64,000 bases of DNA, taken from positions 40,416,001 through 40,480,000 of the forward strand of contig CP068257.2 in NCBI GenBank assembly GCA_009914755.4, written 5' to 3'. Position numbers and translations under genes: made by a program. The notes under the pieces are model-generated. The model did not search any database. It saw only the letters and a program-made list of their open reading frames with translations, and was not told where the DNA came from. This document shows, piece by piece, positions 45,629 through 62,542 of this stretch; position 1 is the first letter of the stretch, and the number at the start of each line of letters is the position of its first letter. The DNA comes from the human T2T-CHM13v2.0 reference genome, Homo sapiens.

Positions 45629-45704
45629 ATGCTCAGGACCTCGGGGCTGGCACTGCTGGCTCTGGTCAGTGCTGTGGGCCCAAGCCAGGCCAGCGGCTTC
45701 ACAG
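45629..45704 (+). CDS. UMODL1: Coding exon 1: ATG plus signal peptide MLRTSGLALLALVSAVGPSQASGFT and one extra nucleotide, ending at a GTGAGG donor (phase 1).
   Basis: The ATG has a reasonable Kozak context (A at -3). A hydrophobic h-region is followed by a small-residue AxA-like cleavage motif (SQA|S). A consensus donor GTGAGG sits at 45705. The phase matches the downstream EMI exon. Confidence 0.55.
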
Positions 45705-46159
45705 GTGAGGGGTCTGGGCTTGGCATGGGCAGTTCTTAAGGACAGGGGCTTCCTGGCATGGGTCTCATGAGGACAGCCCCCTGTGGAGACCTGGGCAGGC
45801 AAGGACGCCTCTGCTTGGAGAGGCGACATCTGTTCTTTTGTGGACAAGCTTTTTGGTAAGCGCACATGGTAGCAGCTGTGGAGGTGGGGCAGGAGTGCCG
45901 GGTAGGGTTTTGGGAAGAGGACTCCCCCAGTGGGAACCTGTTGCTGAATCACCTGGGCGTTCGTGGGGGTAAAATGCAGATTCTTAGCCAGCAGGTCTGG
46001 GGTGCAGGGCCTGGAACTCTACATGTCTGTGGGTGATGCAGATGCTGTGGGTCCTCAGATCCCACTGAGAACAGTGAGCTCCTACAGACGCAGAAGAAAG
46101 GTCTCCTGAACCTTGGTGCATTCAAGTCCTCACTTACAGATTTAAAAAAAAAAGGAGAC

Positions 46160-46392
46160 CTAGCCTGGGCAACATCATGAGACCCCATCTGTACCAAAAA
46201 AAAAAAAAAAAAAAAATTAGCCAGCCATGGTGGTGCACACTTGTGGTCCCAGCTACACAGGAGGCTGGGATGGGAGGATCACTTGAGCTTGGGAGGTCCA
46301 GGCTGCAGTGAGCTAAGATTGCTCCACTGCACTGCAGCCTGGGCGGCAGAGCAAAAGCCCCCAAACAAACAAACAAACAAACAAACAAAAAA
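46160..46392 (+). mobile_element. 5'-truncated Alu with a long (CAAA)n tail.
   Basis: The sequence runs gcctgggcaacatcatgagaccccatctgtaccaaaaaaa....gcctgggcggcagagcaaaagcccccaaacaaacaaacaaacaaacaaacaaaaaaa. Confidence 0.85.
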
Positions 46393-47330
46393 AGCCACAA
46401 TACAAAAACAAAAAAGAAAGGGAGACCCAGAATGGATCAGGGACTTGCCCAGGCCACACAGCTCACAGGGCAGAGTCACCACAGGAGCCAGAGGCTGCAC
46501 CAGGGCTCTGTCCGGAGTTTTCCCAGGCATGCGGAGAGCAGAGCAGCTTCTTAAAAACACACGGGAGTTCTGAAACCCCAGAATCCAGGGAAATGGGACT
46601 GCGGAATTTTAAAATCATTTTCCTCTTAAAATCTGTCATATTCAGTTACAAATTTAAAGGAATCCATTCTGTTTCTAAAATCAACTATGTTTTTGTACTA
46701 CTTTAACGTTTTTCACCCAGAAGCAGGATTTTGCTTTGTGATTTGTGAAATGGATTTTCCCATTGGAACAGGTAATGTGTAGACCCCACAGTTCAGATGC
46801 ATAATGGGTGGGTATCCTGGGAAGCTGGAGAAGGTCTTAGGAGGTGTTTCCAGAACCCCTCATTGTATATGAGGACACGGGGCAGAACCTCAGCAACCCC
46901 ACACGTGGTCGCCCCGAATTTTCCCTGTGTGCCAGCACTGCCTTCACAGGCATGACCCCACTTCAGCCTTTTGCAGCCACAGGACATGGCTGTTATTTCA
47001 CAGATGACAAGAGAGGGGCACTGGGAGGGCATGACATGGGCGCAATCATGCAACAGGGGTTTGTGAGCCTGGGTGTGAGCGCAGGTCCATCTGACCCCAG
47101 GACTCTTGTTGGCCCCAGAGCATTAGGCTTTCCCATCTCTGAGACCGGAATCCAAGACCCCCGGCTCCTGCTCTGATGGCCCTTGTGGGTCTTTGCGGGA
47201 TGGCAGGATCTGCTAACTGCTTTCTTCTCTGGGCTTGGCCAAGAAGCCAGGCTTGGGATGGCACGTGACCTCGGATAAAATGTTAAAAACAAAACAGGGC
47301 AAACATCTCCCGGGCTCCACAGGAGATGAG

Positions 47331-47381
47331 TGTGTGTGTGCGCGCGCGCGCGTGTGTGTGTGTGCGTGTGCGCATGTGTGC
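47331..47381. repeat. (GT)n(GC)n(GT)n alternating purine-pyrimidine tract.
   Basis: The tract reads gtgtgtgtgtgcgcgcgcgcgcgtgtgtgtgtgtgcgtgtgcgcatgtgtg. Confidence 0.95.
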
Positions 47382-48365
47382 AGGACGGCTCTGCTGCGGA
47401 CCAGCTGGGGCCATGTAACGATCAGGTGGGGCCCTGGCACCTCTCTAGAGACCAGGAGCTGTAAGTGTCCTTAATGTGGTTGGCATCTCTGCTCAGGTTA
47501 CGATGAAAAACGCAAGCTAGATCCACTCTGCTAAGTTCTTGGTGCAGGAAGTCCTCGGCCTTTGCCTAGCTCGGCGTGGTCACTGAGTAGGTGAGCGCGT
47601 TCCTTCCGGCCATATTCCACCGTTCTTCATGCAAGTCACCTCTAGGCTCTCAGCCAAGCTGCCCTGGTCCCGGAAGCTGATTTGTCCTGTTCCACCCCGT
47701 ACGATGAGGACCTCCCGTTCCTTTGCAGAGCTCACAGTAACTACCCCACTGGTGATGCCAAGCAGCAGGTGGTCCCCATCCCCAGAGGCCCTGCTGAGCC
47801 CGCAGGGTGATTTGGGGTTCAGCCCCCAGAGGAAGTTGCAGCTCCAGTCCCTGTTGCTTGTGGAGTGGGGTCGCTGTGCAGCAAGTGTGTGGTCCAGCAC
47901 CTGTGTTCTGCCCAGAGCAAATCTGCAGCCTCTTCCCTCACCGTGTTTGAGGGCTGGCTCTGCCCTGTTTCTTCCTGGGGTGAGTAACAAGCCCCTGGAG
48001 TCCTGCTTTCTGCACACTTGTAGGTTGCTGCGAGGTCCAAGGAGGGAATCTTCAGAGATGCTGCCCCAGTGGAGCGAATAAGGACAGCAGTGGTTTTGTG
48101 ATCATTTCTGCTCCCATCTCTGTGTTCCTCCCCAGAAATCAATCCAGCTACTCATTGAGGGAAATCAACTGTAATACTGAGCCCCCACCTCTTGGGGGTA
48201 CAGTCTAGTAAAGCTTAGAGCTCAGGGGTTGAGTGTCTGAAATGCAAGCACTGTATGTCAAATCCTCCGTTCATCCTGCACTGAGAGTCCATGTACTCAG
48301 GGCCCCCTGCTAGGTGCCACGGGGGAGCTGGAGGGGACCCTTCACCATCCCTGTGTGCACTGGCT

Positions 48366-60752: not shown

Positions 60753-61068
60753 GGCCAGGAGTGGTGGCTCAAGCTTGTAATCCCAGCACTTTGGGAGGCC
60801 GAGGCAGGCGGATCACTTGAGGTCAGGAGTTAAAGACCAGCCTGGCCAACATGGCGAAACCCTGTCTCTACTAGAAATCCAGTAATTAGCCAGGCGTGGT
60901 GGCACGTGCCTGTAATCCCAGCTACTGGGGAGGCTGAGGCAGGAGAATTGCTTGAACTCAGGAGGCGGAGGTTGCAGTGAGCTGAGATCGTGCCACTGCA
61001 CTCCAGCCTGGGCTACAGAGCGAGACTCTTGTCTCTAAATAAATAAAAAGTAAATAAATAGAAATAAT
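60753..61068 (+). mobile_element. Alu.
   Basis: The sequence runs ggccaggagtggtggctcaagcttgtaatcccagcactttgggaggccgaggcaggcgg...gcctgggctacagagcgagactcttgtctctaaataaataaaaag. Confidence 0.9.
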
Positions 61069-61763
61069 CATAACCCTGCCTGAGACAGGGCCATGAGCTT
61101 AAATCATACATGTAAAGAGCTTGAGATGGTTCCTGAGCTTCCTGATGCGTGTGGGGCCTGAGATGTTGTGGTTGTTGTGTTTTCAATATTGCTGCGTGAC
61201 ACCTGCTGTCTCCTCGTGCATGTAGGTTTCATGTCTCCAACCAGCCCATTACCCCCTGCAGAAGCGCCTGCCTTGCACAGGGGTCAGGCACCAGCAGGGG
61301 CTGGTCTCTGAGGCCTGCTTCTGCTGCTGAATAAGGGGTTCCGATGAGGTCGGGGCTGGTTCCCAGTTCTGTATGCTAAATTATGAGCTGCATCTCCTCC
61401 CAGGAAGGGGCTTCAAGTGTGTATCGGAGGACTCCTGCTCTCCCCAAACCTCCTTTGGAGTTCCCAGTGGAGGCTTGGGGGTTTGCTGGCAAAGTTTGTT
61501 CTGGTGACCACTGGTCTGGCTGTGCAGCTGCCAGTTCACCTGGCTTCCCAAGGGTTGAGATTTCAAGATATTAAGCTGAAATAAAAATACTGCATATGAA
61601 ATGAGGAAAGTGATCATTAAACCTCAGAAAAATAATTGGATGTGTACAACAGGAGACCGTGGCTTTTGATCTCTAATTGTCTAATTCTAGTTCTAATTCT
61701 CTGTTGTCAGCTGCAAGAGACCTGCAGTCTTGGCAAGGGCAGAAGACCGAGGGTCCTGGGTCT

Positions 61764-62156
61764 GGCTGCTGTATTAGTGTCCTGGGGCCACTGTAACCAA
61801 GGACCACAGACTGGGGGCTTCAAACAACAGAAACTTATTCTGTCACAGTTCTGGGGGCTGAAGAGTCTGAAATCAAGGTGTCGGCAGGGCTGGTTCCTCC
61901 TGAGGCCCCCAGGCCTCTCTCCTTGGCCTGCAGACGGCTGTCTTCTCTGTCTCTTCACACTGTCTTCCCCCATTCATGTCTGTTTCTGTGTCCAAATTTC
62001 CCCTTTTTGTGAGGGCACCAGCCATATTGGATTAGAACCCACCTTCACTAATTATATCTGCAGTAACCCTATTTCCAAATAAGGTCACATTCTGAGGTAC
62101 TGGAGGTTAGGACTTCAACATATGGATTTTAGGGGACAGAATTCAGCTTATCACAA
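61764..62156 (+). mobile_element. MaLR/ERVL-type LTR, family copy 5. It sits immediately upstream of exon 5.
   Basis: The sequence runs ggctgctgtattagtgtcctggggccactgtaaccaaggaccacagactgggggcttcaaacaacagaaacttattctgtcacagttctgggggctgaagagtctgaaatcaaggtgtcggcagg....ccagccatattggattagaacccaccttcactaattatatctgcagtaaccctatttccaaataaggtcacattctgaggtactggaggttaggacttcaacatatggattttaggggacagaattcagcttatcacaa. Confidence 0.7.
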
Positions 62157-62362
62157 CTGGTACTGAAAGGTACTGATAGTTCCGGTTTGTAGGACTTCTA
62201 TTGGGATAGTGATGGATAGATAAGTACTGTAGAGGTTCTTTGCTGAAGAGCAGAATGGTACGTGTGTGTGGACAGTTCATTTCAGCTCTGCGGGCCTCAG
62301 TCTCCTCGTCTGTCTGACGGGGTGTCCTTCTGCTGTGTGACACTCTGATTCTGCCTTCACAG

Positions 62363-62542
62363 GTCACCAGCGCCCTGCAACCAATGGCCTCCACCGTCCA
62401 CCACCTGCACTCAGCCCCTGGGAACGCCTCCACCACAGTGTCGCGGCTGCTACTGGGCCTGCCACGGCCACTGCCTGTGGCTGACGTCTCCACCCTGCTG
62501 GGTGACATTGCGAAGCGTGTCTATGAAGTGATCAGCGTCCAG
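62363..62542 (+). CDS. UMODL1: Coding exon 5 (VTSALQPMASTVHHLHSAPGNASTTVSRLLLGLPRPLPVADVSTLLGDIAKRVYEVISVQ).
   Basis: The acceptor (ctgccttcacag) ends at 62362. The exon is an open 60-codon phase 0-0 unit ending at a GTGCAA donor at 62543, which is a weak donor. It carries the NAS sequon. It is continuous with exon 4 only if the 59482 donor is used. Confidence 0.4.

What the first reader, a model, noticed from the sequence alone, without database searches (positions are those of the whole stretch)
45629..62542. 5' half of a secreted EMI + WAP modular-protein gene (probably UMODL1), built from phase-symmetric exons
Five plus-strand exons can be chained with canonical splice sites and consistent phases. 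They are the signal peptide (45629-45704), the EMI domain (50324-50566), a WAP-like module (58148-58309) and two further exons (59360-59481, 62363-62542). The first three junctions are all phase 1. That pattern is typical of exon-shuffled extracellular modules. An N-terminal EMI followed by a WAP domain is, to my knowledge, the architecture of uromodulin-like 1 (EMI, WAP, FN3, SEA, EGF, ZP). The gene continues past the window end. This is the only protein-coding signal I can support in 64 kb.
Basis: partly seen in the sequence, partly recalled or inferred. Interest (0 to 1): 0.6.

Follow-up and report, generated by a model that had tools for sequence, protein, structure and literature searches.

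The report
First five exons of UMODL1

Summary
The five plus-strand exons are real. They chain into one open reading frame with AG/GT splice sites.

Gene identity is UMODL1. RefSeq names the best full-length homologs, from manatee to mackerel, "uromodulin-like 1". They align across every exon junction without gaps. Six residue numbers published for human UMODL1 (Cys121, Cys139, Cys146, Cys154, Glu124, Glu127) fall on the same residues in my translation.

- **Correction:** exon 5 ends at 62549, not 62542. The whale and tamarin genomic loci show a phase-1 junction (G|AT or G|AC = Asp) in front of the EGF exon. Exons 4+5 together are then a 309-nt phase 1-1 module.
- **WAP:** passes Pfam's cut-off but has six of the eight canonical cysteines; C2 and C7, which pair with each other, are both missing.
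- **EMI:** falls just below Pfam's cut-off for the window's own sequence, but 33 of 35 orthologs hit EMI.

The gene is already known, so interest is low.

The parts
43638..45628 (+). Conserved upstream block: presumed promoter and 5' UTR of UMODL1. The exact transcription start is not determined.
   Evidence: The longest block conserved with the whale locus runs 43638-45854, at 70.7% over 2.3 kb. It has no CpG island. An in-frame stop at 45590 precedes the ATG. The promoter role is inferred, not tested.
45629..45704 (+). Exon 1, coding part: start codon and signal peptide (MLRTSGLALLALVSAVGPSQA|SGFT). Ends in phase 1.
   Evidence: The ATG has A at -3 and is the first in-frame ATG after the stop at 45590. 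The donor CAG|GTGAGG is in the 99.9th percentile of GT sites in the window. Orthologs align across the junction ...SGFT-E-KGLSLL. The signal peptide is judged by inspection only.
50324..50566 (+). Exon 2, 243 nt, phase 1-1: EMI domain (residues about 27-106), six invariant cysteines.
   Evidence: Pfam EMI gives 21.9 bits (E = 3e-4, cut-off 25) for the exon alone. 33 of 35 orthologous segments hit EMI, best E = 4.9e-07. Invariant residues are C11, C35, W38, C44, Y49, C67, C68, Y77 and C78. Only one of three frames is open.
58148..58309 (+). Exon 3, 162 nt, phase 1-1: WAP-type domain (residues 117-157) with six of the eight canonical cysteines.
   Evidence: Pfam WAP gives 38 bits, E = 2e-09, cut-off 20.8. 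It aligns to elafin and omwaprin, with elafin's C2 in a gap and C7 opposite Gly. Cys121, Cys139, Cys146, Cys154, Glu124 and Glu127 match the published human UMODL1 numbering.
59360..59481 (+). Exon 4, 122 nt, phase 1 to 0: first part of a 103-aa βαββαβ (SEA-like fold) module.
   Evidence: The chimpanzee UMODL1 fragment is 100% identical over this exon. The junction ...LLHSL|VTSAL... is bridged by all orthologs. The AF2 model of the module has pLDDT 95.4.
62363..62549 (+). Exon 5, 187 nt (corrected end), phase 0 to 1: second part of the βαββαβ module. The last base G is the first base of the Asp codon that opens the EGF-Ca exon, which lies beyond the window.
   Evidence: The window reads ...ISVQVQ+G in frame. 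The whale and tamarin exon 5 ends and EGF exon acceptors require a phase-1 junction. Orthologs read VQVQ-D-V/I-NEC.

Best explanation
The region is the 5' part of the known vertebrate gene UMODL1 (uromodulin-like 1, olfactorin), most likely the human copy on chromosome 21q22.3. It comprises the presumed promoter region and the first five coding exons.

- Exon 1 encodes a cleavable signal peptide that sends the protein into the secretory pathway.
- Exon 2 encodes a cysteine-rich EMI domain.
- Exon 3 encodes a WAP-type domain held by three rather than four disulfides.
- Exons 4 and 5 together encode a 103-residue α/β sandwich with the topology of a SEA domain.

Each module is bounded by phase-1 introns, which is the signature of domains assembled by exon shuffling. 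The next exon (a calcium-binding EGF domain) and the rest of the gene (FN3, SEA, EGF, ZP, transmembrane anchor) lie beyond the window end.

Shown here: the exons, their phases, the gene identity, the WAP and EMI family assignments and the fold class of exons 4+5. Inferred: signal-peptide cleavage, promoter location, human origin, and homology (rather than mere fold resemblance) of the exon 4+5 module to SEA domains. The protein's function is taken from the literature and was not tested here: an extracellular, membrane-anchored matrix protein reported to attract GnRH neurons through FGFR/MAPK signalling, with the WAP domain proposed from docking to contact FGFR1-FGF2.
For: - Open 261/263-aa chain with canonical splice sites.
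- Homologs named UMODL1 at E = 2.9e-111, and 97% identity to the chimpanzee fragment.
- 191 representative hits, including full-length 1,000-1,700-aa orthologs, named 'uromodulin-like 1' by RefSeq in manatee, vole, newt, snake, frog, milkfish and mackerel.
- Gap-free alignment across all five junctions.
- Six published human residue numbers match exactly, while mouse numbering is offset by one.
- Pfam WAP is above its cut-off. EMI is hit by 33 of 35 orthologous segments.
- Orthologs carry EGF_CA, fn3, SEA, ZP-N and ZP-C downstream, with WAP at 117-157 as in the window.
- The locus is collinear with the whale locus and 86.6% identical to tamarin over the last 1.7 kb.
- About 22 Alu cores mark a primate genome.
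- A protein cluster identical to the window's EMI exon occurs on hundreds of short metagenome contigs, as human contamination does.
- Architecture and function come from PMC8874799, PMC3489600 and PMC3542605.
Against: - No transcript or cDNA evidence could be consulted, so the exact human splice junctions are inferred from orthology and residue numbering.
- The full human UMODL1 protein was not among the proteins returned. Human origin rests on indirect evidence, and another hominid other than chimpanzee is not excluded; the chimpanzee fragment differs at 3 of 98 residues.
- The window's EMI segment is below Pfam's curated cut-off, and its model has no structural match in the PDB.
- The signal peptide was not run through a dedicated predictor.
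Confidence: 0.96

Rival explanations
1. Exon 5 ends where the reader put it (62542, phase 0), and the next exon begins in phase 0 with codons for Val-Gln-Asp.
For: CAG|GTGCAA is a canonical GT donor. On a simple matrix it scores only slightly below the alternative (3.7 against 4.7 bits). No human transcript was available to settle the matter directly.
Against: The window itself encodes the extra Val-Gln plus a G in frame after 62542. In whale and tamarin the EGF exon starts AG|AC GTA GAT... and AG|AT GTC AAT..., which is in frame only after ...GTG CAA G. With the upstream donor the whale reading hits a stop (ACG TAG) and the tamarin reading is frameshifted. The tamarin exon 5 end is base-for-base identical to the window's.
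Confidence: 0.04
2. The exon 4+5 module is not a SEA domain by descent. It is an unrelated or unclassifiable ferredoxin-like α/β sandwich that merely shares the common βαββαβ topology.
For: - No Pfam SEA hit in the window's sequence or in any of 40 orthologs.
- jackhmmer from the protein's own SEA1 and SEA2 domains does not reach it.
- hhalign of the module profile against the SEA profile gives E = 0.28.
- Foldseek finds nothing at E <= 0.001 and ranks S6, ACT and NikR folds alongside.
- The module lacks the GSVVV autoproteolysis motif that SEA1 and SEA2 of the manatee ortholog carry (sequences printed).
Against: - The best Foldseek TM-scores go to Nup54 (0.61) and the GPR126 extracellular region (0.60).
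- The module sits directly in front of an EGF-Ca domain, as SEA1 and SEA2 do in the same protein.
- It is extracellular, where SEA is the usual domain with this fold; that last point rests on my own knowledge.
Confidence: 0.35
3. The region is a non-functional (pseudogene or decaying) copy of UMODL1 rather than the working gene.
For: Only the first five exons can be seen, and no expression data could be checked. There is no CpG island at the promoter.
Against: The reading frame is intact over 263 codons and all splice sites are canonical. All invariant cysteines of EMI and WAP are kept. The residue numbering equals that of the reviewed human protein. The intron-exon structure is collinear with whale and tamarin, so this is not a processed copy. 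A CpG-poor promoter is expected for a gene with restricted expression.
Confidence: 0.02

Closest known systems
Human UMODL1 / olfactorin (UniProt Q5DID0; chromosome 21q22.3; about 80 kb, 23 exons according to PMC3489600)
   Same: The N-terminal order is signal peptide, EMI, WAP, then an EGF-Ca domain. Residues Cys121, Glu124, Glu127, Cys139, Cys146 and Cys154 are at the published positions. Homologs are named UMODL1.
   Different: No differences detected. The human reference sequence itself was not available for a residue-by-residue comparison. The literature treats residues about 160-262 as a linker between WAP and the first FN3 domain (PMC8874799), whereas here that segment models as a folded domain.
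WAP four-disulfide-core domains (elafin, SLPI, omwaprin; anosmin-1 WAP)
   Same: Pfam WAP is above its cut-off. It aligns to elafin (E = 5e-4) and omwaprin, with the conserved C1, C3, C4, C5-C6 and C8 cysteines and the DCPG..KCC core.
   Different: C2 and C7 are both missing. In the canonical core these two pair with each other (pairing from my own knowledge), so three disulfides remain. Protease-inhibitor activity was neither tested nor assumed.
EMI domains of EMILINs and multimerins (Pfam PF07546)
   Same: An N-terminal position right after the signal peptide, a cysteine-rich segment of about 75-80 residues, and a C-terminal CC.GY....YC motif. EMI is the only Pfam family hit recurrently by the orthologs.
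   Different: It has six cysteines, and the window's own sequence scores below Pfam's curated cut-off (21.9 against 25 bits). No solved structure matched, so the fold could not be compared.
SEA domains (MUC16 SEA5 7sa9; murine SEA 1ivz; TMPRSS6; TMPRSS11D 2e7v; GPR126)
   Different: There is no detectable sequence similarity and no GSVVV self-cleavage motif. Foldseek does not single out SEA.
Uromodulin (UMOD) and other ZP-domain matrix proteins
   Same: Orthologs end in ZP-N/ZP-C plus a membrane anchor, as uromodulin does (the comparison to UMOD is from my own knowledge).
   Different: That part lies outside the window. The EMI, WAP and SEA-like N-terminal modules seen here are not part of uromodulin (from my own knowledge).

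Membership tests
UMODL1 gene (orthology) | Best database homologs over the whole translated chain are UMODL1 proteins | tested here: met
   The gray whale 'Uromodulin-like 1' gives E = 2.9e-111, 65% identity and 100% coverage. Chimpanzee 'UMODL1 isoform 11' is 97% identical. Seven full-length orthologs are named 'uromodulin-like 1' by RefSeq.
UMODL1 gene (orthology) | Homologous proteins align across every proposed exon junction without gaps | tested here: met
   Alignment of ten full-length orthologs. Only two unreviewed gene models (whale, lizard) carry an insert at the EMI/WAP junction.
UMODL1 gene (orthology) | Residue numbering agrees with the reviewed human protein Q5DID0 | tested here: met
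   Cys121, Glu124, Glu127, Cys139, Cys146 and Cys154, as given in PMC8874799, all coincide. Mouse numbering is +1.
UMODL1 gene (orthology) | Downstream FN3, SEA, EGF-Ca, ZP domains and a transmembrane anchor | not testable with these tools
   These lie beyond the window end. They are present in the orthologs (Pfam on manatee and milkfish proteins) and in the second whale gene model on L001.
UMODL1 gene (orthology) | Chromosomal neighbourhood on human 21q22.3 | not testable with these tools
   No annotated vertebrate genome collection was available. The 45 kb upstream shows no recognisable coding gene.
Secreted protein (signal peptide) | N-terminal hydrophobic core followed by a small-x-small cleavage site | not testable with these tools
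   By inspection the sequence reads MLRTSG-LALLALVSAVG-PSQA|SG. No signal-peptide predictor was available.
WAP domain (PF00095) | Pfam score at or above the gathering cut-off | tested here: met
   38 bits against 20.8, E = 2e-09, residues 117-157 covering the whole 41-position model.
WAP domain (PF00095) | Eight cysteines forming the four-disulfide core | tested here: not met
   Six cysteines (121, 133, 139, 145, 146, 154). In the elafin alignment C2 lies in a gap and C7 faces Gly. The domain is therefore filed as a three-disulfide variant of the WAP type.
EMI domain (PF07546) | Pfam score at or above the gathering cut-off | tested here: not met
   17.6 bits in the whole chain and 21.9 bits for the exon alone, against a cut-off of 25. 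However, 33 of 35 orthologous segments hit EMI at E <= 0.1 (best 4.9e-07), and no other family recurs.
EMI domain (PF07546) | Conserved cysteine framework ending in CC.G(Y/W/F)....C | tested here: met
   C11, C35, C44, C67, C68 and C78 are invariant, and G70, Y71 and E72 are nearly invariant, in 35 orthologs. The family's consensus pattern is from my own knowledge.
EMI domain (PF07546) | Fold matches a solved EMI domain | tested here: inconclusive
SEA domain (PF01390), for exons 4+5 | Sequence match to the SEA profile | tested here: not met
   No Pfam hit in the window's sequence or in 40 orthologs. jackhmmer from UMODL1 SEA1/SEA2 does not reach it. hhalign gives E = 0.28.
SEA domain (PF01390), for exons 4+5 | βαββαβ sandwich closest to solved SEA domains | tested here: inconclusive
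SEA domain (PF01390), for exons 4+5 | G|SVVV autoproteolysis motif (present in many but not all SEA domains) | tested here: not met
   The motif is absent from the module. It is present in SEA1 (AGSVVVK) and SEA2 (NGSVVVA) of the manatee ortholog (sequences printed).
Exon-shuffled class 1-1 modules | Each domain is bounded by phase-1 introns, and its length is a multiple of three | tested here: met
   EMI is 243 nt (1-1), WAP is 162 nt (1-1), and exons 4+5 are 122+187 = 309 nt (1-1, with an internal phase-0 intron). The EGF exon opens in phase 1.

The most novel reading that the evidence does not exclude
Residues 161-263 of UMODL1 (exons 4+5) are described in the literature only as a linker and match no Pfam family. 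The most novel reading is that they are a third, highly divergent, non-self-cleaving SEA domain. UMODL1 would then be built from three SEA-EGF units, the first of which has lost all sequence resemblance to the others. I could not check whether this is already recorded in structure-classification resources or in the 2017 census of divergent SEA domains (Pei and Grishin), which was not held.
Probability: 0.55. Interest if true: 0.2.

Novelty: already known. Interest (0 to 1): 0.1.

Why it matters
It matters little beyond correct annotation. UMODL1 is a described gene, with reported roles in olfactory and GnRH-neuron development and in ovarian follicle biology, and a disputed association with high myopia (PMC8874799, PMC3542605, PMC3489600).

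Three by-products are useful:
- The exact exon 5 boundary restores the phase 1-1 rule for every module.
- The WAP domain lacks one whole disulfide. This bears on published docking models that treat it as a standard WAP.
- The supposed WAP-FN3 "linker" is in fact a compact folded domain, which should be taken into account in any structural model of the N-terminal region.

Tried and rejected
I used the whale ortholog instead.
- The look-up of the chimpanzee fragment's contig found nothing.
- The EMI fold comparison led nowhere: no solved structure resembles the model.
- The afdb50 library was unavailable.
- The 2017 divergent-SEA paper is not held, and no paper in the library links UMODL1 with divergent SEA domains.
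- The Rfam scan of the whole window found nothing.
- Pfam on the ten longest other ORFs found nothing.
- The whale model's extra 81-nt exon between EMI and WAP was considered as a missed exon. I rejected it because it has no counterpart in the window, in ten other orthologs, or in the human numbering.

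
Full report
**Observation**

When assembled they have AG before each of the four acceptors and GT after each of the five donors. Exons 2, 3 and 5 are each open in only one of three frames, and exon 4 in two. The ATG at 45629 has an A at -3 and is the first in-frame ATG after a stop at 45590.

**Identity**

- The translation finds a gray whale protein named "Uromodulin-like 1" at E = 2.9e-111 (65% identity, full coverage). 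It also finds a chimpanzee "UMODL1 isoform 11, partial" at 97% identity.
- An exhaustive search seeded with the whale protein returned 191 relatives, including full-length proteins of 1,000-1,700 residues.
- RefSeq calls these "uromodulin-like 1" in manatee, snow vole, newt, corn snake, tailed frog, milkfish and mackerel.
- Pfam finds WAP at residues 117-157 in the orthologs, the same coordinates as in the window. EGF_CA, fn3, SEA, ZP-N and ZP-C follow. This is the architecture given in the literature (PMC8874799; PMC3489600; PMC3542605).

**Junctions**

Ten full-length orthologs align across all five junctions without gaps. These include the EMI-to-WAP junction (YCVL-P-LNxS), which the whale and lizard gene models interrupt with unsupported inserts.

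An independent check comes from the 2022 olfactorin paper. It cites Cys121, Cys139, Cys146, Cys154, Glu124 and Glu127 of human UMODL1 (Q5DID0), and gives mouse numbers one higher. All six positions hold those residues in my translation. This rules out the 50246 acceptor (+26 residues) and any extra exon before the WAP domain.

**Correction to exon 5**

tblastn alignments ran past 62542. In frame the window continues ...SVQ-VQ-G, and every ortholog reads ...VQVQ-D-(V/I)-N-E-C.

- In the whale locus, exon 5 ends GTG CAA G|GTGCGG and the EGF exon starts CAG|AC GTA GAT GAA TGT.
- In the tamarin locus, the exon 5 end is identical to the window's (GTG CAA G|GTTGGG) and the EGF exon starts TAG|AT GTC AAT GAG TGT.
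- Only a phase-1 donor after ...CAAG keeps the frame.

Exon 5 is therefore 62363-62549 (187 nt). Both candidate donors score weakly on a simple matrix (3.7 and 4.7 bits), so this rests on orthology and not on motif strength. By collinearity with whale and tamarin, the EGF exon falls at about 64,350-64,365, just past the window end.

**Module structure**

With the correction, every module is bounded by phase-1 introns. EMI is 243 nt, WAP is 162 nt, and exons 4+5 are 309 nt with an internal phase-0 intron. This is the class 1-1 pattern of exon-shuffled extracellular domains (established knowledge).

**WAP**

Pfam places the domain above its cut-off, at 38 bits against 20.8. The alignment with elafin shows six of the eight canonical cysteines. 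Elafin's second cysteine lies in a gap and its seventh faces a glycine. In the canonical core these two pair with each other (my own knowledge), so one whole disulfide is absent. This is consistent with the two disulfides named in the paper, 121-146 and 139-154. Some fish orthologs keep an extra cysteine at one or the other position.

**EMI**

The window's sequence scores 17.6 bits in the whole chain and 21.9 bits as the exon alone. Both are below Pfam's cut-off of 25. However, 33 of 35 orthologous segments hit EMI (best E = 4.9e-07), and no other family recurs. Six cysteines and the closing CC.GY....YC motif are invariant. The AF2 model (pLDDT 86.6, pTM 0.38) is a long β-hairpin with no structural match in the PDB, so the fold test says nothing either way.

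**Exons 4+5**

- This segment matches no Pfam family, neither in the window nor in 40 orthologs.
- Iterated searches from the protein's own two SEA domains find each other but not this module.
- A profile-profile comparison is not significant (E = 0.28).
- An AF2 model built on 40 orthologs, headed by the chimpanzee sequence (97% identical to the window), is very confident. It has pLDDT 95.4 and pTM 0.85, with topology β-α-α-β-β-α-β.
- Foldseek finds nothing at E <= 0.001 and mixes S6, ACT and NikR folds. Its best TM-scores go to Nup54 (0.61) and GPR126 (0.60).

The fold class is solid. The specific SEA label is only moderately supported. The module lacks the GSVVV self-cleavage motif that SEA1 and SEA2 carry. 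The literature treats this stretch as a linker. I could not check the 2017 census of divergent SEA domains.

**Surroundings**

- The window has about 22 Alu cores, an L1-like ORF, several tandem repeats and no CpG island. There are no Rfam matches and no Pfam match in the ten longest other ORFs.
- The locus is collinear with whale from 43.0 to 63.9 kb. The longest conserved block (43638-45854) covers exon 1 and about 2 kb upstream.
- A protein cluster identical to the window's EMI exon occurs on hundreds of short metagenome contigs, as human host DNA does. The chimpanzee fragment differs at 3 of 98 residues.
- Human origin is therefore the most likely reading but is not proven.

**Verdict**

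This is the 5' part of a known, annotated gene. Novelty is nil for the gene itself. The by-products are a 7-nt boundary correction, a three-disulfide WAP variant and a hidden folded domain.

Noticed in passing
window 52433-52835: A 50-bp minisatellite of 8.1 copies, 97% matching, in UMODL1 intron 2. A MetaClust protein model (P0002) wrongly translates it as a C-terminal tail.
   Followed up: partly
window 51322-51382: A perfect (GT)30 microsatellite in intron 2.
   Followed up: no
window 1062-2064: A TG-rich low-complexity tract of about 1 kb (periods 2, 9, 11 and 47). It produces spurious ORFs of 130-181 aa on both strands.
   Followed up: no
window 15707-16114: A 22-bp tandem repeat of 18.8 copies, 80% matching. 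It underlies a 223-aa ORF on the minus strand that has no Pfam match.
   Followed up: partly
window 11048-11650: A 200-aa ORF that looks like the C-terminal part of LINE-1 ORF2. I recognised it by eye; Pfam gave no hit.
   Followed up: partly
window 6801-7220, 9747-10173, 27905-28384 and about 20 other sites: Alu elements on both strands: 22 matches to an Alu core motif, Alu-derived ORFs and an 82%-identical Alu pair. They mark the window as primate DNA.
   Followed up: partly
window 43638-45854: The longest block conserved with the whale locus (70.7% over 2.3 kb). It lies mostly upstream of the start codon and is a candidate promoter or regulatory region. There is no CpG island here or anywhere else in the 64 kb.
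   Followed up: partly
L001 19363-19443 (gray whale): The whale gene model inserts an 81-nt, 27-residue exon between EMI and WAP. It has no counterpart in the window, in ten other orthologs or in the human numbering, so it is probably an annotation artefact.
   Followed up: partly
Orthologs P0034 (milkfish) and P0046 (mackerel), WAP region: The WAP cysteine pattern varies among fish. Milkfish has an extra cysteine at the C2 position and mackerel has one at the C7 position. Tetrapod orthologs lack both.
   Followed up: no
window 45485-45952, minus strand: A 155-aa ORF antisense to exon 1 and the promoter, with no Pfam match. It is probably a chance ORF in GC-rich sequence.
   Followed up: partly
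P0004 (Marmota monax gene model): The marmot model skips the WAP exon altogether and joins EMI to the exon 4 region. Skipping a phase 1-1 exon keeps the frame, so this could be either a real isoform or a prediction artefact.
   Followed up: no
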